Positions 8,464 through 28,350 of a DNA stretch of 64,000 nucleotides are shown piece by piece. Every line of letters starts with the position of its first letter. The first letter of the stretch is position 1. The stretch comes from Escherichia phage PJNS034: sequence record PP391266.1; one strand, 5' to 3'. The notes beneath the pieces are model-generated. The model had not been told where the DNA came from. It was given only the letters and a program-made list of their open reading frames with translations, and ran no database searches. The translations under genes and the position numbers were made by a program.

Positions 8464-8772
8464 ATGAACATGATTTACTCTAACGCACATTACGCAATCT
8501 ACTTCGTACCGAACGGTACTCCTGAGAAAGAACACGACTTTACCAAGCAGTTCACCATCGTGAATATGCACCTCGGTACTGTCGAAGCTCAGGTTGGTTC
8601 TTTCCCACATGCTGTACAGTATTGCGATGTGTTTGCTGCTGATTGGGAAGCACTGGTAATGAATGCAAAAGGCCAGTTCAATCCTGAGATTCAGGGCAAC
8701 GATAATGGTGCTGATAAAGCCGAAGCAAAAGCTGGTCTGAAACTGGCAACTGTGGATGGTGAAAACGTATAA
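8464..8772 (+). CDS. hypothetical protein (102 aa)
   Basis: ORF-track ORF; stop overlaps start of exonuclease gene. Confidence 0.3.
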   Translation: MNMIYSNAHYAIYFVPNGTPEKEHDFTKQFTIVNMHLGTVEAQVGSFPHAVQYCDVFAADWEALVMNAKGQFNPEIQGNDNGADKAEAKAGLKLATVDGENV

Positions 8773-9797
8773 TGAGCAAAATCCCCGTATGTAAGACAAC
8801 ACGACCTACGGTGGATTTAGCACTCATTGACGCAGACGTACTGCGTTACGAATTAGGGGCTGTGCAACTAGACCATCCTTATATCAAGGGTGAGAAGGTT
8901 CCAGCCCCTTCCTCGTTTGTTGAGGGCTTAGTTCAAGACCGTATTGAAACTATTCTGGACAGAACTGGTGCGAAAGACTTCTTATTGTTCCTCACAGGGC
9001 CGGGAAACTTCCGGTTTGATATTGCCAAACAGCAACCATATAAAGGCAACCGAGAAGATTTTGAAAAGCCTTTCCATTGGAAGACTGTTGACCGTTACCT
9101 CCGAACCGTTTATCCCTCCAAAATCCGTGAAGCATTCGGTAACGAGGCAGATGATGAATTGGGCATTACTCAATTACGTTCTGTCCTCGCAGGGGATAAG
9201 GATAACACCTGCATCGCTTCTCGTGACAAAGACCTGAGAACAGTGGAAGGATGGCATTACTCTTGGGCATGTGGTGAAGACCAGCCTGAGAAACCACTAC
9301 GTTACATCACTCAGCTTGAAGGTTATCGCTTCTTCTTCCAACAGATGCTTACTGGTGATAACACTGATAACATCATTGGTTGTGGTAAAAAGAAAGAAGT
9401 GATGTGGGGTGGTAAGCTCATGATGCGGCGTAAAGGCGTGGGCAAGAAAACTGCTGAGAAGTTACTTGCAGAGCTTGAGAACCAACAACAAATGTACGAT
9501 GTTGTTCGTGAACAGTATGTCGAAGTGTTTGAGGATGAAGCTGATACAGTGATGCTCGAACAAGCTCGGTTATTGTTTATTGGACAGACTGAGAAACAAC
9601 AATTTAAATGGCACTGGATTGAGGTGGTTGAATATGGAATTGGCTCCGAAGAAAGCGAAGTTGTGGAAGGAAAAGAACCTGAAGGGACGTTGGATGTTCC
9701 TGAGGAAAATCGACGGAGTGAGAGCACTTCGGAACCTAGACCCAACGATTCCAGCGAAGTATGTGAGCCGGAATGCGAAACCTCTGTACAATCTTGA
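8772..9797 (+). CDS. 5'-3' exonuclease (T7 gp6-like, FEN/RNase H-like)
   Basis: Segments ASRDKDLRTV and GDNTDNIIGCGKK match the CDKDF and GDITDGYSGIAGWG regions of T7 gene 6 exonuclease as recalled; last ~55 codons are low-complexity and overlap the ligase ORF. Confidence 0.7.
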   Translation: MSKIPVCKTTRPTVDLALIDADVLRYELGAVQLDHPYIKGEKVPAPSSFVEGLVQDRIETILDRTGAKDFLLFLTGPGNFRFDIAKQQPYKGNREDFEKPFHWKTVDRYLRTVYPSKIREAFGNEADDELGITQLRSVLAGDKDNTCIASRDKDLRTVEGWHYSWACGEDQPEKPLRYITQLEGYRFFFQQMLTGDNTDNIIGCGKKKEVMWGGKLMMRRKGVGKKTAEKLLAELENQQQMYDVVREQYVEVFEDEADTVMLEQARLLFIGQTEKQQFKWHWIEVVEYGIGSEESEVVEGKEPEGTLDVPEENRRSESTSEPRPNDSSEVCEPECETSVQS

Positions 9798-10332
9798 CCA
9801 CTTGGAGTTTGATGATGCTGAAATCTTTAATCAAAATTGGGAAACTTCCGTTTCAATGGTGCGTACTCATTGTGCGGCTCCTGTTCCTGCTGATTGCGTT
9901 TATCGTCTTGGTGATGGTCAGACCGATTCACGATTATACTTGTTCACGGTGCAAGACCCAACCGAAGAGTTCATTCGGAAGCATCTGGAAGAAGCTCTGG
10001 CGAAAGGTGATGAAGGCTTAATATTAAGGGAGGCCGATGTTGACGACCCGAAATGGCTCAAAGTCAAAAATAAAGAAACTCATGACGTGGTGGTTACGGG
10101 TTATCAGCCGGGCACCGGTAAGCATGAAGGACGGATGGGTGCTCTACTTACGACGAGAGGCAAAGTTGGTACAGGCTTCACAGACAGTGAACGAGACTAC
10201 TGGCAGCAACGCTGGGAAGAGGGTACTGTCGTAGGTGTTACGATTGAGGTGGAATGTATGGAGTTAACTTCCACTGGTAAATTCAGACACCCACGCTTTA
10301 TCCGTGAACGCCTTGATAAAGATGGCGAATAG
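9634..10332 (+). CDS. ATP-dependent DNA ligase (compact, T7 gp1.3-like)
   Basis: Adenylation motif I KIDGVR, EGLIL, WLKVK and C-terminal RHPRF-like motif; start placed at ATG 9634 (GAGG 10 nt upstream) rather than the TTG at 9580 given by the ORF track. Confidence 0.7.
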   Translation: MELAPKKAKLWKEKNLKGRWMFLRKIDGVRALRNLDPTIPAKYVSRNAKPLYNLDHLEFDDAEIFNQNWETSVSMVRTHCAAPVPADCVYRLGDGQTDSRLYLFTVQDPTEEFIRKHLEEALAKGDEGLILREADVDDPKWLKVKNKETHDVVVTGYQPGTGKHEGRMGALLTTRGKVGTGFTDSERDYWQQRWEEGTVVGVTIEVECMELTSTGKFRHPRFIRERLDKDGE

Positions 10333-10345
10333 CAGTATATTAACT

Positions 10346-10371
10346 AAGGTCACTTCGGTGGCCTTTTCTTT
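10346..10371 (+). terminator. Rho-independent terminator after ligase
   Basis: Stem aggtcac/gtggcct with ttcg loop, followed by tttcttt. Confidence 0.55.
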
Positions 10372-10450
10372 CATCTAACTATAGGCAAAACAATGAAACA
10401 GGCTGTATTTGATTTCGCTTCTCGCATGGTCGATAAGCTGACTGCTGATT

Positions 10451-11092
10451 ATGACAAAGCAGAAACCTCTGACGTTGCAGAACGCATCATGTCAGAACTC
10501 AAAAACTACATCAAAATGCGTGATGATGCACAACGTTCTCTGGAGAAAGCTAATGCGTAAGGTTTATATTGCAGGTCATATGTTAACTCGTGGTGCTCAG
10601 ATGCAACGTGCTGAGGAACGTGAGCTGGTATCTTCTTTGGGTCATCAACTCTACAACCCAATGGACAACAAGGAAATTAACGACAAGAAGCTCCACAAGG
10701 ACGATACAGGGCTGGCTGAACGAATCGTTAAGCAAGACACCGACGCTATTTTCTGGGCTGATACAGTGCTGATTGAGCCGCTTGCTGAGGCAAATGGCAC
10801 TCTGGTTGAGTTAGGACAGATTAAAGGTATGAAAGACCTCGCCAAGAAGCTGATGGAGTTACCTGCAACAAATGAGATTGAGTTCGCTGACCAAGCAATT
10901 GAATTGCTCAAACGAATCCTAGACCAGAAGGTTGTTGCTCACTTCGAAGATATCCGACGTGTCGAAGGTATCACCGAAACAGGCGACCGTCGCTCTCTTG
11001 GCATTAACCAGTATGTATATGGTACTGTCCTTGACCTGACAGATGGCAAAGGCTTCACTGAGTTTAAAGACTTGCCGGAGGCTCTTGCTTGA
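10451..11092 (+). CDS. nucleoside 2-deoxyribosyltransferase / Rcl(DNPH1)-like N-glycosidase family protein
   Basis: VYIAGHM near N-terminus and DTDAIFWADTVLIEPLAEANGTLVELGQ match the Rossmann-like core and Glu-containing active-site stretch of this family as recalled; true start probably the internal Met (codon 35). Confidence 0.55.
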   Translation: MTKQKPLTLQNASCQNSKTTSKCVMMHNVLWRKLMRKVYIAGHMLTRGAQMQRAEERELVSSLGHQLYNPMDNKEINDKKLHKDDTGLAERIVKQDTDAIFWADTVLIEPLAEANGTLVELGQIKGMKDLAKKLMELPATNEIEFADQAIELLKRILDQKVVAHFEDIRRVEGITETGDRRSLGINQYVYGTVLDLTDGKGFTEFKDLPEALA

Positions 11093-11751
11093 ACTGGAGA
11101 TTAATATGGTCAGTCTTTGCCGTGCTATCCATTCTGTTTGGGTGCGTTGTTTCAAAAGCAAGTTACGAAGTAATGGCGACGTCCCTAGTGGGCGTCATGT
11201 TCGTGATAGGGGTAGCCTTCAAGAAAGCAAGTGCGAATCTTTTGGGGGCTATACTGTGCGCTATGCTTGGGTTGATGAGCTGGCAAGCTGGATACTACAT
11301 GAACGCGATTATCAACATCTTCTTATTGCTACCACTCCAGTTATTAGCTTACGCCAATTGGACGACAGGGGTGTCGAAGCGAGAGCATCACAGGTACTTG
11401 GTGGAAACGGTCTGTCGCAAACGATTCTTGATTTACACATGTTGGCTAATTCCTCTCTTGGTAGCCGCATACTTCTCAGGCAGCCGTTTGTGGGTACACG
11501 ATGCTGTGACAGCCTCACTTGTGATTGTCGCAACACTTCTCCTCATGTTCAATACCAAAGAGCAATGGCAATTCTGGATTCCATACAATCTGGTAGAAGT
11601 CTTCATGTGGTTCATCGCAGCGAGTACAGCCCCTGAAATGCTTGCAATTATGTTCATGCGTATTGTATTCTTCATTAACAGTCTGATTGGCTATTACGAA
11701 TGGAGGAACGATGGCAATCCACGGACGCTACTTTCGACAGAAACCCGCTGA
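11089..11751 (+). CDS. PnuC-like nicotinamide riboside transporter (putative)
   Basis: 220-aa polytopic membrane protein; C-terminal LIGYYEWRN resembles the PnuC IYGWYEW signature; start overlaps stop of upstream Rcl-like gene. Confidence 0.45.
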   Translation: MNWRLIWSVFAVLSILFGCVVSKASYEVMATSLVGVMFVIGVAFKKASANLLGAILCAMLGLMSWQAGYYMNAIINIFLLLPLQLLAYANWTTGVSKREHHRYLVETVCRKRFLIYTCWLIPLLVAAYFSGSRLWVHDAVTASLVIVATLLLMFNTKEQWQFWIPYNLVEVFMWFIAASTAPEMLAIMFMRIVFFINSLIGYYEWRNDGNPRTLLSTETR

Positions 11752-12172
11752 GTTAAAAGGTACTGACTATGACTCACGTCTTGAGAAAAGGCTGCATGAG
11801 GCGCTTCCCGTCCTCAACCACCATCCAGCGAAAAGGCCGTATGTTCGACACCATACCTACGAGCCAGATTTCGAAGTACAAGGAAACAAGACATATCTTG
11901 TTGAAGCCAAAGGTTACTTCCAAGACCGTAACGAACTTGGCAAGTACCTCCCCATTGCGGAGTCTCTGGGCGATAGTGCTGAGTTGGTATTTGTGTTTGA
12001 GAATGCCGACAAACCAATCCACTTCCAAGCCAAACGTAAGGATGGAAGCAAAATGACACATCGTGAGTGGTGTGTTAAGAATGGATTTCAAGTCTTTGAC
12101 GAGGATGAGTTCCGAGTATGGATTCCAAGTGTTACTACTGTGACGGAATCGGGAGACACAGAGCTTTCGTAA
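11687..12172 (+). CDS. endonuclease I-like Holliday-junction resolvase (T7 gp3-like)
   Basis: HTYEPDFEVQGNKTYLVEAKGYF matches the T7 endonuclease I core HTYTPDFLLPNGIFVETKGLW (PD...E-x-K). Confidence 0.75.
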   Translation: MAITNGGTMAIHGRYFRQKPAELKGTDYDSRLEKRLHEALPVLNHHPAKRPYVRHHTYEPDFEVQGNKTYLVEAKGYFQDRNELGKYLPIAESLGDSAELVFVFENADKPIHFQAKRKDGSKMTHREWCVKNGFQVFDEDEFRVWIPSVTTVTESGDTELS

Positions 12173-20213: not shown

Positions 20214-22483
20214 TATGGAGTCTCCTCGTTGTTGATAGGAGGAGCCTCCGTAGAGACTCCATTCATCTTGTCATTATACAACGCATCCAGCTTCATCTCA
20301 AGCACTTGGACTCGTTCGTCAATCAGCCCCTTCACATTACTCTGTAACAGCTCTAAGGTCGTCCTGAGTGTCTCATTGTCGGCTTTGAGTTGTCGGTTCT
20401 GAGCAGAAAGTTCCTTGATAGCCTCGATGTGCAAAGCATGTAGCTGGTTGTAATCTACAGTGTAATAGTCCTCTTCATCCTCTTCGTCATTTGGATTGTT
20501 CCCAACGAAGACGGCATTGTCATATACTCCAAGCAATTCCTGAGCAATAACGCCTGCACTTGGTACATCGGAACCGTTATACATGAACGTATAACCATTC
20601 AGCTTCTCTACAGTTTCCAAGGCATTATCAACCTTTGTAACACTGTGTTTGAGACGTTCATCCGAGGCATTAACAACCTGACCAGTAATCTGACCATTCA
20701 CAGATAACTTAGATTGGTTATTTGCCAGACCTGTATTACGCTCCAGATACATGCCGTAGGGAAGACCTTCCCAACCCCATTCCAGAACAGTCTCACGAGC
20801 ACCAGAGCCCCACAAACGAAGGTTAGCCTCACGACCAGCACCATTAATACGTTTCCAGTATTGAGTAGAGTTGTAGTAAGTTGCACCATTCAAATGCGTA
20901 GGACAACCAAAAGAGGTAGCACCGTCGGTCATATTGATAGTGATAGGACGATGCCCTGTCCAGCCTCCCCAGCCGCCATCTGTATGAGATAACAGGAAGT
21001 ACATGTTTGCACCATCCTGACGGAATATGAAACCTTTGTTACCGTAGACAGCTCGGAATGAGTCAGCATGGGTCGAAGCTACACCGTAATACACAAACTT
21101 GTTAGGGTCGAAGTAACCTTTAACTGCACTGTTTGACCAGAGGTTTACTGCACCATCTGCTCGGAAGCCAAAACCTGAGTCATTATCGCCAATAGCTAAC
21201 TGTAAGGTGTTGTTAGCTTTGCTCTCAAGTTGGATTCGATTCCCAACATTCACAATGTCCTTGATGTTTGCATTACCTGAAGATGTAATGCTACGGTTGC
21301 AGATGTAACTATCTGTAGAAGTCTTCAGGTCAACTAACAAGTTGGCATTGGTTGGAGTTGTTACAGGGCCGACAGGAAATACAGCAGCATTAGGGGCAGT
21401 TCCCAACGATACTTGAGCTTTATGCAGAATTGGTGGAGTCTGAGACTCAATGTGGTATACATTATCTCCACGGACATAAACTACAAAACCGTAAAAATCC
21501 CTGCTACCAGCGAAAATGCCACCAAGTGTACGTTCATTATAATCGTAGACTGACAAAACACCGGAAACTACTTGAGGTGTATCAGACCAACCAGATGCTT
21601 GTACAAAACCAATAAATGAGTTCTGGTTGAAGGGGTCAGTACCGCCACGAGCTGTAGATTTGATACTCAGTCGAGTAGAGTTCCAAGTTTGGTCAAGGTT
21701 AAACTGGATTGGATAGAACCAGTCTTTATTCAATCCACGGGTATCAATTACATACCGTTTACCAATGTCCTGAGAAGCAGCATTCAATTCATCAAGAGAA
21801 GGTTTACGGCCTGTATGGTACACATCTTGGTCACTGTAAGTAAGGCGCCCATCATCTTTTAGTTGAAGGTACTTATTGGTTGCACCATTCTTCAGATAAA
21901 TGTCACCAGAACCAACGCCAAGGTCAAGAACTTTATTACCAGTTAGTTGTAGGTTCCCACCCTTCGGGATGTACTTACTGTCAGATTCACCTTTGGTATA
22001 AACACTAATCTTAGCCGCATATCCATTATCTGACTGAGCTTTAGTGTAGTATCGACCATCAGCTTCTGCTTTTGAATAGTATTGTTTGAGAGCTACCTGT
22101 ACTCGTGATTCTAGGTCTTGAATCCCTTCCGCTTGCTTGTTGAAATATGCAATAGCTGCTGAGATACGTTTAGCAAAGTCAGCAATTGTTTCATTCAGTG
22201 TGTTGATAATTGCATACTCCGTATCAGTCACACTGTCTTTGTTGAAAGCGGTACGAAGTTCAATCTCTGTGTTGGAGTTGACAGTCTTAATCTCTGCCAT
22301 CATGACATTATCGTCAGCAATAGAAATCAACACCAAGTCACCCGGAGTGATTCCCATCTTATCATCAGCCCACAAGGTATTTTTACCAGTGATTAAGGCT
22401 GAACCTGCCTTGTACGTTACCGTACCAGTTTTATACCACATACTACCTCCGAGGGAAGAAAGGCTCCAGAAGGAGCCAGTCAA
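20213..22483 (-). CDS. tail fibre/spike with C-terminal intramolecular chaperone (peptidase S74-like) domain
   Basis: C-terminal segment SDERLK...LNGYTFMYNG...GVIAQEL matches the self-cleaving chaperone module of endosialidase and T5 L-shaped fibre as recalled. Confidence 0.7.
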   Translation of the reverse strand: MTGSFWSLSSLGGSMWYKTGTVTYKAGSALITGKNTLWADDKMGITPGDLVLISIADDNVMMAEIKTVNSNTEIELRTAFNKDSVTDTEYAIINTLNETIADFAKRISAAIAYFNKQAEGIQDLESRVQVALKQYYSKAEADGRYYTKAQSDNGYAAKISVYTKGESDSKYIPKGGNLQLTGNKVLDLGVGSGDIYLKNGATNKYLQLKDDGRLTYSDQDVYHTGRKPSLDELNAASQDIGKRYVIDTRGLNKDWFYPIQFNLDQTWNSTRLSIKSTARGGTDPFNQNSFIGFVQASGWSDTPQVVSGVLSVYDYNERTLGGIFAGSRDFYGFVVYVRGDNVYHIESQTPPILHKAQVSLGTAPNAAVFPVGPVTTPTNANLLVDLKTSTDSYICNRSITSSGNANIKDIVNVGNRIQLESKANNTLQLAIGDNDSGFGFRADGAVNLWSNSAVKGYFDPNKFVYYGVASTHADSFRAVYGNKGFIFRQDGANMYFLLSHTDGGWGGWTGHRPITINMTDGATSFGCPTHLNGATYYNSTQYWKRINGAGREANLRLWGSGARETVLEWGWEGLPYGMYLERNTGLANNQSKLSVNGQITGQVVNASDERLKHSVTKVDNALETVEKLNGYTFMYNGSDVPSAGVIAQELLGVYDNAVFVGNNPNDEEDEEDYYTVDYNQLHALHIEAIKELSAQNRQLKADNETLRTTLELLQSNVKGLIDERVQVLEMKLDALYNDKMNGVSTEAPPINNEETP

Positions 22484-27465: not shown

Positions 27466-28350
27466 TTAGGCAGTACGTTGCCAGATGAACATCGCAAAGC
27501 CTGGGTCATATGTATCGAAACGAGCGTTACCACCAGTGTTCTGAGAACGGAAGTCGATTCGGTGTGAGTGATTACCAGCCGCAGAGGTGTTGGTATCAAT
27601 ATACAGGAATCGGTCGTTATCGTTATCTGAACCTTTGGAACCGAGGTTACGGTTATAGCCACCCGGAGTTGGTTCGATAAAAGGCAGTGACCATACAGTC
27701 GTGTTTGCTTCGATGTAGTAACGGTCACGGTATGGGTGGGTGTGGTTCCCAGCATCCTGGGTCTGACCTACAACTTGGTGGCTGTGAGCAGGTAAGTTAC
27801 CTTCAACCAACTGAGTTTTATAGAAGCCCGGAGTCTTACCAACGTTAGGGAAGTTGATAGAATCACGACCATCTGAGTCAGAGCCTTGACCTACAATATA
27901 ACGACCAGCAGCAATACGAACCCAAGTACCTACGCCAAGTAACTGAGCAGGGTTTTGGTTTACCATAGTGAAGTACACAGAGCCTACAGGCCATGCTTGT
28001 CCACGAGCTGCTGCTGAGTTGAAGTAAGCAAGAGTTACTGCATCCTGAGGAGCAGCAGGGTTGGATACGTTCTGAAGACGGTTGCCACCACAGTTCATGG
28101 TCTTATTAGCTGCCATCGTTACAGAACCATTGATAGTCACATCACCATTCGTGTTAGTAGCTGAGAACGTCTTATCAAGGTTATTCAACTTGTCAGCACT
28201 CATTGTGACAACTTTGTTGATATTCGGGAAGGTAGTTTTCAGTACCTGCTTAATCAAACGGAGGTGGTCATCACCTTCTTTAATCAAGTCAACGTTACGC
28301 GGGAATGATGGATTGAGTTGGTCAATAGTGTTAGCTACTTCTACACTCAT
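27466..28350 (-). CDS. tail fibre-like protein (294 aa)
   Basis: Segment CGGNRLQNVSNPAAPQDAVTLAYF resembles the conserved attachment motif of many phage tail fibre proteins; followed by a terminator. Confidence 0.45.
   Translation of the reverse strand: MSVEVANTIDQLNPSFPRNVDLIKEGDDHLRLIKQVLKTTFPNINKVVTMSADKLNNLDKTFSATNTNGDVTINGSVTMAANKTMNCGGNRLQNVSNPAAPQDAVTLAYFNSAAARGQAWPVGSVYFTMVNQNPAQLLGVGTWVRIAAGRYIVGQGSDSDGRDSINFPNVGKTPGFYKTQLVEGNLPAHSHQVVGQTQDAGNHTHPYRDRYYIEANTTVWSLPFIEPTPGGYNRNLGSKGSDNDNDRFLYIDTNTSAAGNHSHRIDFRSQNTGGNARFDTYDPGFAMFIWQRTA

What the first reader, a model, noticed from the sequence alone, without database searches (positions are those of the whole stretch)
9580..9797. Exonuclease and ligase reading frames overlap by ~160-220 nt
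The gp6-like exonuclease ORF runs ~40 codons past its expected end into a low-complexity acidic tail that overlaps the start of the ligase ORF in another frame. Either this is a real long overlap, the exonuclease stops earlier through an undetected frameshift or sequencing error, or the ligase uses a later start.
Basis: seen in the sequence. Interest (0 to 1): 0.3.

Follow-up and report, generated by a model that had tools for sequence, protein, structure and literature searches.

The report
Real exonuclease–ligase gene overlap in phage
The last ~54 codons of a phage flap-exonuclease gene and the first 54 codons of its DNA ligase gene share the same 164 bases in two reading frames; this is a genuine, conserved overlap, not an error.

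Summary
The exonuclease ORF (8772-9797, 341 aa) and the ligase ORF share DNA in different frames. The true ligase start is ATG 9634, with a GAGGTG Shine-Dalgarno at 9621-9626. The overlap is therefore 164 nt (9634-9797), not the mechanical 218 nt from TTG 9580.

It is not a sequencing error. Pantoea phage TacPo2 and two independent SRA assemblies have the same 341-aa exonuclease, the same ligase ATG and the same 164-nt overlap. A later ligase start is excluded. The catalytic motif I lysine (K25, nt 9706) and an invariant LKG (9679-9687) lie inside the overlap, and homologous ligases have N-termini of the same length.

The overlapped part of the exonuclease is a predicted-disordered acidic tail (pLDDT <50 from residue 291). 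Substitutions there fall mainly on ligase third positions (ligase-frame omega 0.05), so the tail sequence drifts. Yet, given the ligase protein and phage codon usage, the exonuclease frame would stay open with P about 1e-4. It would also be near neutral in charge rather than -8 to -12. Non-overlapped homologous ligases carry 6-13 stops in that frame.

Both frames therefore appear to be under selection. This is a new, well-supported example of a known kind: a terminal gene overlap arising by overprinting.

The parts
8772..9797 (+). Flap-endonuclease-type 5'-3' exonuclease gene (341 codons + TGA).
   Evidence: ORF. PHROG 107 'exonuclease' E 6e-61 over residues 14-284. tblastn to phiEco32/7-11-type exonucleases at about 50% identity. 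AlphaFold model has mean pLDDT 84.9 and Foldseek prob 1.0 to T4 RNase H, E. coli ExoIX and T5 D15. The same 341-aa protein occurs in TacPo2, L008 and L009.
8772..9641 (+). Folded nuclease core of the exonuclease (residues 1-290).
   Evidence: pLDDT is mostly above 90 for residues 11-280 and 79 for residues 281-290. The last helix is 280-283. The last nearly invariant residues are W280 and W282. omega is 0.089 versus TacPo2.
9642..9794 (+). Disordered acidic C-terminal tail of the exonuclease (residues 291-341), encoded entirely inside the ligase gene.
   Evidence: pLDDT <50 for 291-341. 18 D+E versus 4 K+R in the last 59 residues. No significant similarity to tails of any exonuclease outside the 4-member clade. 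Kept open and acidic beyond expectation.
9795..9797 (+). Exonuclease stop codon TGA, formed by ligase codons L54-D55 (cTT GAc).
   Evidence: It sits at the same position in all four genomes.
9621..9626 (+). Shine-Dalgarno GAGGTG of the ligase, inside exonuclease codons 284-285, 7 nt before the ATG.
   Evidence: Sequence. GAGGT is conserved in TacPo2, L008 and L009. The region is less structured than shuffles (z +1.25).
9634..10332 (+). ATP-dependent DNA ligase gene, compact ICP2/phiEcoM-GJ1 type (232 codons + stop).
   Evidence: Pfam PF14743 at 41.7 bits (cut-off 28) and PF04679 at 34.1 bits (cut-off 27.5). PHROG 114 E 4e-41. About 50% identity to annotated ligases of Vibrio phages ICP2 and VpJYP1 (225-229 aa). 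The TacPo2 CDS is annotated from the same ATG.
9634..9797 (+). The overlap proper: 164 nt read in two frames (ligase codons 1-54 plus 2 nt; exonuclease codons 288-341 plus stop).
   Evidence: Substitution pattern. Resampling.
9679..9723 (+). Conserved ligase N-terminal core inside the overlap: invariant L16-K17-G18 and motif I K25-I-D-G-V-R30 (adenylated lysine codon 9706-9708).
   Evidence: Invariant columns in the alignment with ICP2, VpJYP1 and Fifi44 ligases. Motif I also aligns to PDB ligases.
9580..9633 (+). Window-specific upstream extension of the ligase frame (TTG 9580). Not part of the gene.
   Evidence: TTG is TCG in TacPo2. TacPo2, L008 and L009 have TAA/TAG in the ligase frame three codons before the ATG. 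There is no SD before the TTG.
10346..10375 (+). Terminator-like hairpin and T run just after the ligase stop, likely the end of the exonuclease-ligase transcription unit.
   Evidence: This is a consensus scan only.

Best explanation
This is a genuine, conserved terminal overlap of two replication genes.

The ligase is translated from its own ATG at 9634, using a GAGGTG ribosome-binding site embedded in the exonuclease gene. Ribosomes translating the exonuclease read on in the -1 (=+2) frame through the first 54 ligase codons to TGA 9795-9797. This appends a roughly 51-58-residue disordered, strongly acidic tail to the folded nuclease core.

The ligase frame is the older one in this stretch and is constrained residue by residue. 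The exonuclease tail is a clade-specific sequence written over it (overprinting). It probably arose when an ICP2-type compact ligase replaced the larger ligase found at this position in related phages.

The tail's exact sequence is free to drift. Its openness, length and negative charge are maintained through the choice of ligase third-codon bases: G rather than T before K/N/D/E/R codons.

Shown here:
- the overlap, the ligase start and its conservation;
- the asymmetric substitution pattern;
- the non-random stop avoidance and acidity;
- the predicted disorder of the tail.

Inferred:
- both products are made;
- the overprinting history;
- the acidic tail works as a flexible docking or DNA-mimicking module for replisome partners, as acidic C-terminal tails do in the T7 system.
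For: Same architecture in four independent sequences (341-aa exonuclease, ligase ATG, 164-nt overlap).

Ligase start:
- SD at 7 nt.
- In-frame stops just upstream in three relatives.
- TTG 9580 not conserved.
- Homologous ligases have 14-26 residues before the invariant LKG versus 15 here.
- Motif I lies inside the overlap.

Ligase-frame constraint:
- omega 0.05 in the ligase frame versus 2.4 in the exonuclease frame.
- Across all six genome pairs, 11-24 of the differences fall on ligase position 3.
- Tail identity is 49-72%, versus 92-95% for the exonuclease core and 85-94% for the ligase N-terminus.

Exonuclease-frame selection:
- P(open) about 1e-4, with the median first stop at codon 7, on synonymous resampling.
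- 0 T among 55 at-risk third positions (36 G, 12 C, 7 A), against 0.40 T genome-wide in that context.
- Two T<->G changes co-vary with CGG<->AGG in the next codon (codons 23/24 and 32/33).
- Non-overlapped homologous ligases have 6-13 stops in that frame and T-rich third positions.
- Even conditional on an open frame, the expected net charge is +4 +/- 3 versus -8 to -12 observed (0 of 5000 simulations).

Tail properties:
- Disordered: pLDDT <50 for residues 291-341.
- Family context: 84% of 51 homologues have net-negative tails, median 41 aa.
- Clade-specific tail sequence.

Replacement history:
- Relatives with the same synteny carry an unrelated 362-366-aa ligase after a spacer.

Other:
- It is the longest annotated overlap in the first 50 kb of TacPo2 (164 nt versus 74 nt for the next).
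- Overlapping viral genes tend to encode disorder (PMC8227390).
- T7 acidic tails mediate replisome contacts, including stimulation of gp6 (PMC4124056).
Against: - No expression data: translation of either frame through the overlap is inferred from sequence only.
- The four genomes are close relatives (77-87% identity in the overlap), so stop avoidance and acidity are partly inherited and not four independent observations.
- The exonuclease-frame omega above 1 and the low tail identity are also what a neutral read-through peptide would show.
- Close relatives at 59-66% identity have essentially no tail (5-10 aa), so a tail is not needed for the nuclease fold.
- The window-clade tail lacks the C-terminal aromatic residue that is critical in T7 gp2.5/gp4 and SSB tails.
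- G-rich third positions could in principle serve an RNA- or DNA-level purpose.
- The finding was picked because the ORF is long, so the chance estimates carry some ascertainment bias.
Confidence: 0.8

Rival explanations
1. The overlap is real, but the tail is a neutral by-product. After a gene replacement removed the exonuclease's own stop, ribosomes run on into the ligase gene until the first chance stop, and the extra peptide has no function.
For: - Exonuclease-frame omega is 2.4 and tail identity is only 49-72%.
- Tail length in the family tracks whatever lies downstream (5 to 100 aa).
- Tail-less close relatives exist.
- The tail is predicted disordered.
Against: - A 53-codon open run has P about 1e-4 given the ligase sequence, and about 1% empirically.
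- It persisted through near-saturating third-position divergence (pS 0.70) with no T at any of 55 at-risk sites and with compensating codon pairs.
- Homologous ligases have 6-13 stops there.
- The acidity is far beyond expectation even given an open frame, and it matches the family-wide acidic tails.
Confidence: 0.14
2. The ligase starts later (ATG 9694 or beyond), so there is little or no functional overlap.
For: Automatic gene calls stored for L008 and L009 start the ligase at internal codons (157 and 194 aa), reducing or removing the overlap.
Against: - Those calls delete motif I (K25) and the invariant LKG.
- ATG 9694 is not conserved: it is Thr or Ala in two relatives.
- Homologous ligases of 225-254 aa align from residue 1-2 onwards.
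- A strong SD precedes ATG 9634.
Confidence: 0.02
3. Assembly or sequencing indel: the exonuclease really stops near residue 285-290 and the long tail is an artefact.
For: Homology to most exonucleases ends at residue 283. The tail is low-complexity.
Against: Identical frame and length in four independently sequenced genomes, with ungapped alignment. The exonuclease frame has no stop anywhere in 9620-9794, so a single-base error does not restore a short protein unless it falls exactly at the domain end in all four.
Confidence: 0.01
4. The ligase starts upstream at TTG 9580 (250 aa; 218-nt overlap).
For: The window's ligase frame is open from 9580.
Against: - TTG is TCG in TacPo2.
- There is a TAA/TAG in frame three codons before the ATG in TacPo2, L008 and L009.
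- No SD precedes the TTG.
- Homologues have no such extension.
Confidence: 0.01
5. A programmed +1 (or -2) ribosomal frameshift near the domain end makes an exonuclease-ligase fusion protein, and the overlap exists to allow it.
For: - The two enzymes act consecutively in Okazaki-fragment maturation.
- The ligase frame is open from 9580 in the window.
- An SD-like GAGGTG lies at the junction.
Against: - No slippery or hungry-codon site lies in the exonuclease frame. The only heptamer (T TTA AAT, 9603-9609) is phased for the other frame.
- In three relatives the ligase frame is closed by a stop just before the ATG, leaving no room for a shift upstream of it.
- No stimulatory structure is present.
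- The ligase has its own SD and ATG.
Confidence: 0.02

Closest known systems
Terminal gene overlaps and overprinting in viruses (e.g. phiX174 A/K; reviewed in PMC8227390)
   Same: [quoted passage not shown] One frame is older and tightly constrained. The newer one is clade-restricted, compositionally biased and disordered.
   Different: This one sits in a ~65-kb tailed dsDNA phage rather than a tiny ssDNA or RNA virus. The overprinted product is not a new protein but a new C-terminal tail on an existing enzyme. It apparently substitutes for the non-overlapping acidic tails of related exonucleases.
Phage FEN-type 5'-3' exonucleases (T7 gp6, T4 RNase H, T5 D15; phiEco32/7-11-type exonuclease, PHROG 107)
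   Same: The fold, and conserved carboxylate clusters: D20, D22, E125-D128, D152, D154, D196, D199 are invariant or nearly so.
   Different: It has a 51-58-aa disordered acidic extension. Pfam 5_3_exonuc models score below their cut-offs, so it is a divergent member.
Compact ATP-dependent DNA ligases of Vibrio phage ICP2 / phiEcoM-GJ1 type (225-254 aa)
   Same: About 50% identity, the same length, and the same motifs I-VI and OB domain.
   Different: Here the first 54 codons are shared with the upstream gene. The N-terminal 15 residues are unusually Lys-rich (ELAPKKAKLWKEK), and third positions are G-rich instead of T-rich.
Acidic C-terminal tails of T7 gp2.5 and gp4, and the SSB C-terminal tip
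   Same: A disordered, strongly acidic C-terminus on a replication protein. In T7 such a tail is needed for gp2.5 to stimulate the gp6 exonuclease and to bind polymerase and helicase (PMC4124056). Several relatives' exonuclease tails even end in ...DGTPF or ...IPSFG.
   Different: The window tail ends ...CETSVQS, with no terminal aromatic residue. No binding partner is known. The resemblance is compositional only.
Eukaryotic FEN1 C-terminal tail (PIP box) and the FEN1-Lig1-PCNA hand-off
   Same: A FEN nuclease with a flexible C-terminal tail used for tethering, acting just before a ligase (my own knowledge; PDB 7qo1 appears among the fold matches).
   Different: No PIP-like or clamp-binding motif was identified in this tail. 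FEN1's tail is basic after the PIP box, whereas this one is acidic.

Membership tests
Terminal out-of-phase gene overlap (two functional genes sharing DNA) | Two same-strand ORFs in different frames share nucleotides, and each belongs to a recognisable gene. | tested here: met
   Exonuclease 8772-9797 and ligase 9634-10332 share 164 nt. Both have family hits.
Terminal out-of-phase gene overlap (two functional genes sharing DNA) | The arrangement is conserved in related genomes. | tested here: met
   Identical in TacPo2, L008 and L009.
Terminal out-of-phase gene overlap (two functional genes sharing DNA) | There is evidence of selection on both frames. | tested here: met
   Ligase frame omega 0.05. 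The exonuclease frame is kept open (P about 1e-4) and acidic (0/5000) through ligase-synonymous sites. Caveat: the four genomes are closely related.
Terminal out-of-phase gene overlap (two functional genes sharing DNA) | Both products are actually translated across the overlap. | not testable with these tools
   Needs ribosome profiling or proteomics.
Overprinting (one frame born de novo over an older one) | One frame has a wide phylogenetic distribution in the shared stretch and the other is restricted to the clade. | tested here: met
   Ligase residues 16-54 are homologous to non-overlapped ligases of ICP2, VpJYP1 and Fifi44. The exonuclease tail has no match outside the four genomes.
ATP-dependent DNA ligase (covalent nucleotidyltransferase superfamily) | Motif I KxDGxR with the adenylated lysine. 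| tested here: met
   K25-I-D-G-V-R30 is invariant in the alignment and aligns to motif I of PDB ligases.
ATP-dependent DNA ligase (covalent nucleotidyltransferase superfamily) | OB-fold domain with motif VI. | tested here: met
   PF14743 at 41.7 bits (cut-off 28) and PF04679 at 34.1 bits (cut-off 27.5). R218-x-P220...R224, R226, D228, K229 are invariant.
ATP-dependent DNA ligase (covalent nucleotidyltransferase superfamily) | Nucleotidyltransferase-domain motifs III, IIIa, IV and V. | tested here: inconclusive
   D61-A-E-I (III), E127-G (IV) and K143 in LKVK (V) are invariant in the 7-sequence alignment. The Pfam adenylation-domain model PF01068 did not reach E 0.01. Motif assignment is by eye.
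ATP-dependent DNA ligase (covalent nucleotidyltransferase superfamily) | Nick-sealing activity. | not testable with these tools
   Biochemistry is needed.
FEN / 5'-3' exonuclease family | PIN-like nuclease fold with H3TH region. | tested here: met
   AlphaFold model pTM 0.78. Foldseek prob 1.0 to T4 RNase H, ExoIX and T5 FEN (E about 1e-8). PHROG 107 E 6e-61. Pfam models are below their cut-offs.
FEN / 5'-3' exonuclease family | Conserved metal-binding carboxylates. | tested here: met
   D20, E125, D127, D128, D152, D154, D196 and D199 are invariant, and D22 nearly so, in 51 sequences. Assignment to metal sites is inferred, not modelled.
Acidic C-terminal docking tails (T7 gp2.5/gp4, SSB-Ct) | Disordered, strongly acidic C-terminus. 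| tested here: met
   pLDDT <50. Net charge -14 over 59 residues.
Acidic C-terminal docking tails (T7 gp2.5/gp4, SSB-Ct) | C-terminal aromatic residue (Phe) at the tip. | tested here: not met
   The window, TacPo2, L008 and L009 tails end in QS or QP. The feature is present in some relatives (…GTPF, …IPSFG). The window tail is therefore not filed as a member, only as possibly working in a similar way.
Acidic C-terminal docking tails (T7 gp2.5/gp4, SSB-Ct) | Binds polymerase, helicase or SSB. | not testable with these tools
   Needs pull-down experiments or complex modelling.
Programmed ribosomal frameshift site | Slippery sequence in the upstream frame plus a stimulatory element, with the downstream frame open across the shift site. 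| tested here: not met
   There is no suitably phased slippery site. The ligase frame is closed by TAA/TAG just before the ATG in three relatives. No stable structure is present.

The most novel reading that the evidence does not exclude
The acidic tail is a functional replisome-docking or DNA-mimic module that was re-created de novo. After a compact ligase cassette replaced the ancestral ligase and removed the exonuclease's original tail, selection acting only on ligase-synonymous third positions (and on the permissive, Lys-rich first 15 ligase residues) sculpted a new stop-free acidic tail out of the ligase's own 5' coding sequence. That would be convergent regeneration of a protein-interaction tail by overprinting, and it would physically tie the expression of the flap nuclease and the ligase that act in succession on Okazaki fragments.
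Probability: 0.3. Interest if true: 0.55.

Novelty: new member of a known kind. Interest (0 to 1): 0.35.

Why it matters
**Annotation.** Automatic gene callers penalise long overlaps. In two public assemblies they cut this ligase down to 157 or 194 aa, which deletes its catalytic lysine. The only GenBank relative labels both genes 'hypothetical protein'. Recognising the overlap gives correct models for two replication enzymes in this phage group.

**Evolution.** This is an unusually clean case in a large dsDNA phage where both frames can be read out. One frame is conserved residue by residue. The other is conserved only in openness, length and charge, entirely through the partner gene's synonymous sites. 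It offers a simple genetic handle, because single ligase-silent substitutions truncate the tail. That would test whether acidic tails on phage flap nucleases matter, a question left open for how T7 gp6 is tied to the replisome (PMC4124056).

It does not change any general principle. Overlapping genes and disordered overprinted regions are well known.

Tried and rejected
- The scan of IMG/VR viral contigs with the ligase protein found no relatives.
- A literature search for TacPo2 found nothing.
- I compared the window ligase with the 362-366-aa ligases that occupy the same slot in 7-11 and L012, to test whether the short ligase is a truncated copy whose former N-terminus became the exonuclease tail. 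There is only superfamily-level similarity (E 0.58 and 0.013), so it is a different ligase and the idea was rejected.
- I looked for a translational-coupling hairpin over the ligase RBS. There is none, and the region folds worse than shuffles.
- I looked for promoter-like sites inside the exonuclease gene that would give the ligase its own transcript. None lies in 8600-10300.
- I tried to repeat the two-frame substitution analysis on L010 and L011, where longer exonuclease tails overlap a different downstream ORF. The two sequences diverge too much after about 50 nt to align reliably.
- A plain pairwise dN/dS initially suggested the tail is unconstrained. The resampling tests showed that this reading is incomplete.
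- The antisense ORFs 9323-9745 and 9570-9791 were treated as by-products of the purine-rich sense strand and not pursued.
Full report
**1. What is in the sequence**

The + strand carries an ATG-initiated ORF at 8772-9797 (341 aa). In another frame it carries an ORF that the mechanical listing starts at TTG 9580 and ends at 10332. They share 9580-9797. From the first ATG of the second frame (9634) the shared stretch is 164 nt. The second frame is the first frame +1.

**2. What the two genes are**

*The first ORF is a flap-endonuclease-type 5'-3' exonuclease.*
- PHROG 107 'exonuclease', E 6e-61 over residues 14-284.
- About 50% identity to the annotated exonucleases of phiEco32-, 7-11-, GAP52- and Privateer-type podophages.
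- An AlphaFold model (51-sequence alignment, mean pLDDT 84.9, pTM 0.78) matches T4 RNase H, E. coli ExoIX and T5 D15 with Foldseek probability 1.0.
- Pfam's 5_3_exonuc models hit only below their cut-offs, so it is a divergent member.

*The second ORF is an ATP-dependent DNA ligase of a compact type.*
- Pfam OB-domain models score above their cut-offs, and PHROG 114 gives E 4e-41.
- It has about 50% identity to the 225-229-aa ligases annotated in Vibrio phages ICP2 and VpJYP1, and 37-41% to the 254-aa ligase of Erwinia phage Fifi44.

**3. Where the ligase starts**

- GAGGTG lies at 9621-9626, 7 nt before ATG 9634. GAGGT is kept in all relatives.
- TTG 9580 is TCG in TacPo2.
- In TacPo2, L008 and L009 the ligase frame has TAA or TAG three codons before the ATG. 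In those genomes the ORF cannot start further upstream.
- A later start is excluded. L16-K17-G18 (9679-9687) and motif I K25-IDGVR (9706-9723) are invariant across distant homologues. The only internal ATG (9694) is Thr or Ala in two relatives.
- Homologues have 14-26 residues before LKG, against 15 here.

The ligase is therefore 9634-10332 (232 aa) and the overlap is 164 nt.

**4. Not an artefact**

Three other sequences carry the same arrangement: Pantoea phage TacPo2 (PP496723, 88% identical over the region) and two Logan assemblies from unrelated SRA runs (L008, L009). Each has a 341-aa exonuclease, the same TGA, the same ligase ATG and an ungapped alignment. TacPo2's depositors annotated exactly this 164-nt overlap. 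It is the longest annotated overlap in the first 50 kb of that genome, and the next is 74 nt.

By contrast, the gene calls stored for L008 and L009 shortened the ligase to 157 and 194 aa. That removes the catalytic lysine.

**5. What part of the exonuclease is overlapped**

Sequence homology to other exonucleases stops at residue 283-284. The last nearly invariant residues are W280 and W282. Model confidence falls from above 90 to about 40 from residue 291 to the end. The ligase ATG falls in exonuclease codon 288.

The overlap therefore coincides almost exactly with a predicted-disordered tail. That tail is strongly acidic: 18 D+E versus 4 K+R in the last 59 residues.

**6. How the overlap evolves**

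*Ligase frame.* Between the window and TacPo2, 24 of 38 differences in the overlap fall on ligase third positions. Nei-Gojobori omega is 0.05 in the ligase frame and 2.4 in the exonuclease frame, against 0.09 for the exonuclease core and 0.19 for the rest of the ligase. All six genome pairs show the same asymmetry. Tail identity is 49-72%, against 92-95% for the exonuclease core and 85-94% for the ligase N-terminus. Taken alone, this looks like a tail that merely hitch-hikes.

*Exonuclease frame.* It is far from random, for five reasons.
- (a) I resampled synonymous codons for ligase residues 1-54 from this phage's own codon usage. The exonuclease frame stays open in about 1 of 10,000 trials, and the median first stop is at codon 7.
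- (b) Each genome has 13-14 'at-risk' third positions, where a T would create TAA, TAG or TGA. None of the 55 genome-sites has T (36 G, 12 C, 7 A), although T is 40% of third bases in that context genome-wide. In two places a T-ending codon appears exactly where the next Arg codon is CGG instead of AGG (codons 23/24 and 32/33).
- (c) The homologous, non-overlapped ligase genes of ICP2, VpJYP1 and Fifi44 carry 8, 13 and 6 stops in that frame. Their third positions are T-rich, whereas here they are G-rich.
- (d) Even when stops are forbidden in the simulation, the expected tail has net charge about +4 +/- 3, against -8 to -12 observed (0 of 5000 simulations).
- (e) In the phage's other genes only 1.2% of 53-codon windows are open in this frame.

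The tail's exact sequence therefore drifts, while its openness, length and acidity are held. They are held through sites that are silent for the ligase. They may also be helped by the unusually Lys-rich, non-conserved first 15 ligase residues, because AAR codons read as GAA/GAG one base earlier.

**7. Family and locus context**

Across 51 exonuclease homologues the extension after W282 ranges from 5 to 100 aa (median 41), and 84% are net negative. Several end in aromatic tips (…DYEDGTPF, …TSIPSFG) reminiscent of SSB or T7 gp2.5 tips. The window tail has no detectable similarity to any tail outside its four-genome clade.

The slot downstream of the exonuclease is variable in otherwise syntenic relatives (exonuclease ... 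nucleoside deoxyribosyltransferase, PnuC-like transporter, endonuclease I):
- An unrelated 362-366-aa ligase after a spacer or small ORF, in 7-11, A24, J3S and L012. L012's exonuclease has no tail.
- A Ser-rich unknown ORF overlapped by 215-284 nt of a 76-100-aa tail, in L010 and L011.
- A 184-aa unknown ORF in L013.

Ligase residues 16-54 are homologous to those of non-overlapped ligases, and the tail is clade-specific. The tail is therefore the younger frame in the shared stretch. The most economical history is replacement of the ligase cassette, with the junction at the end of the nuclease core. The exonuclease frame then extended into the new ligase gene and was tuned to be open and acidic. 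This history is an inference.

**8. How it most likely works**

Both proteins are made from one transcript.
- No promoter-like site lies inside the exonuclease gene, and a terminator-like hairpin follows the ligase stop at 10346-10365.
- The ligase initiates independently at an unstructured RBS.
- Exonuclease-translating ribosomes pass over that RBS and terminate 164 nt downstream.

The exonuclease therefore carries a flexible polyanionic tail. By analogy with T7, I infer that the tail tethers the nuclease to a replisome partner or shields its DNA-binding surface. [quoted passage not shown]

This functional step is not shown. The defining C-terminal aromatic residue of those tails is absent here, so the tail is not filed as a member of that class.

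**9. Rivals**

- A neutral read-through tail remains possible at roughly 0.14. It is consistent with the drift in the tail sequence. It is hard to reconcile with the stop avoidance, the compensating codon pairs and the acidity.
- A sequencing error, a later ligase start, a TTG 9580 start and a programmed frameshift fusion are each contradicted by direct comparisons.

**10. Comparison with what is known, and verdict**

This is a terminal overlap of the kind first seen in phiX174. It has the usual signature of viral overprinting, with the younger frame disordered and compositionally biased (PMC8227390).

Less usual features are the setting (two identifiable replication enzymes in a ~65-kb tailed phage), the length (164 nt, including a catalytic motif of one partner), and the nature of the new product: a replacement tail rather than a new protein.

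It is a real feature and a new member of a known kind, of moderate-to-low general interest. It has practical value for annotation and offers a tidy experimental handle through ligase-silent stop mutations.

Noticed in passing
Exonuclease homologues P0017, P0019, P0022, P0023, P0029, P0032, P0035, P0042 and others; L003:2492-3403; L002:2495-3451: Many related exonucleases have acidic tails ending in aromatic tips (…DYEDGTPF, …TSIPSFG, …TPIPCFG, …DSPF, …VDPF). These resemble the E. coli SSB C-terminal tip (…DDDIPF) and the T7 gp2.5 terminal Phe. They may be a replisome- or SSB-partner-docking motif on phage flap nucleases. The window's tail lacks it.
   Followed up: partly
L010:1227-1973 and L011:1341-2207, with exonuclease tails L010:311-1441 and L011:422-1624: In exonuclease relatives at about 65% identity the tail is 76-100 aa. 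It starts with a conserved basic stretch (VRLDxKVVRxRAxRKPK) and overlaps by 215-284 nt a different downstream ORF of unknown function with a poly-Ser C-terminus. This is a second, even longer overlap at the same junction. The start of that ORF and the selection on each frame could not be resolved.
   Followed up: partly
Window 9634-10332; L005:1447-2136; L006:1453-2130: The ICP2-type ligases are only 225-232 aa yet keep motif I, the EG/LKVK motifs and an OB domain with motif VI. They are smaller than the LigE-type and Chlorella-virus minimal ligases found in the PDB search (258-297 aa). No solved structure covers the N-terminal half at significant E-value.
   Followed up: partly
L008:4085-4558 and L009:2035-2619 (stored gene calls): Automatic gene calls truncate the ligase to 157 and 194 aa to avoid the overlap, deleting the motif I lysine. 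In TacPo2 (PP496723) all CDS, including the exonuclease and the ligase, are annotated 'hypothetical protein'.
   Followed up: yes
Between the exonuclease and the nucleoside deoxyribosyltransferase gene: window 9634-10450; L012:3389-4682; L013:3407-4373; L003:3309-4939: This slot is a replacement hot spot in otherwise syntenic phages: a 232-aa ligase, an unrelated 362-366-aa ligase, a Ser-rich ORF, or a 184-aa unknown ORF. The length of the exonuclease tail changes with the occupant.
   Followed up: partly
Window 11043-11751: The PnuC/NMN-transporter-like gene (11089-11751) contains a 153-codon open alternative frame, corresponding to ORF 11043-11636 (197 aa). This is the longest such run in the window. 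It may be a composition effect of a membrane-protein gene or another overlap.
   Followed up: no
Window 11687-12172 versus 11089-11751; TacPo2 27799-27839: The endonuclease I-like gene overlaps the end of the PnuC-like gene by about 41-65 nt, depending on the start chosen. TacPo2 also has several annotated overlaps of 55-74 nt elsewhere.
   Followed up: no
Window 10313-10375: A promoter-like site (TTGATA-17-TATATT, 10313-10341) and a terminator-like hairpin (10346-10365 plus a T run) sit at the 3' end of the ligase gene. They suggest a transcription-unit boundary right after the ligase.
   Followed up: no
Window 9323-9745 and 9570-9791, minus strand: Antisense ORFs of 140 and 73 aa lie opposite the exonuclease 3' region and the overlap. 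They are probably by-products of the purine-rich, stop-poor sense sequence.
   Followed up: no
TacPo2 record 20555-21472 (L014): The closest relative carries a cluster of 11 tRNA genes, including tRNA-Glu(TTC) and tRNA-Lys(TTT). These are the two amino acids that dominate the two frames of the overlap. Whether the window has the same cluster was not checked.
   Followed up: no
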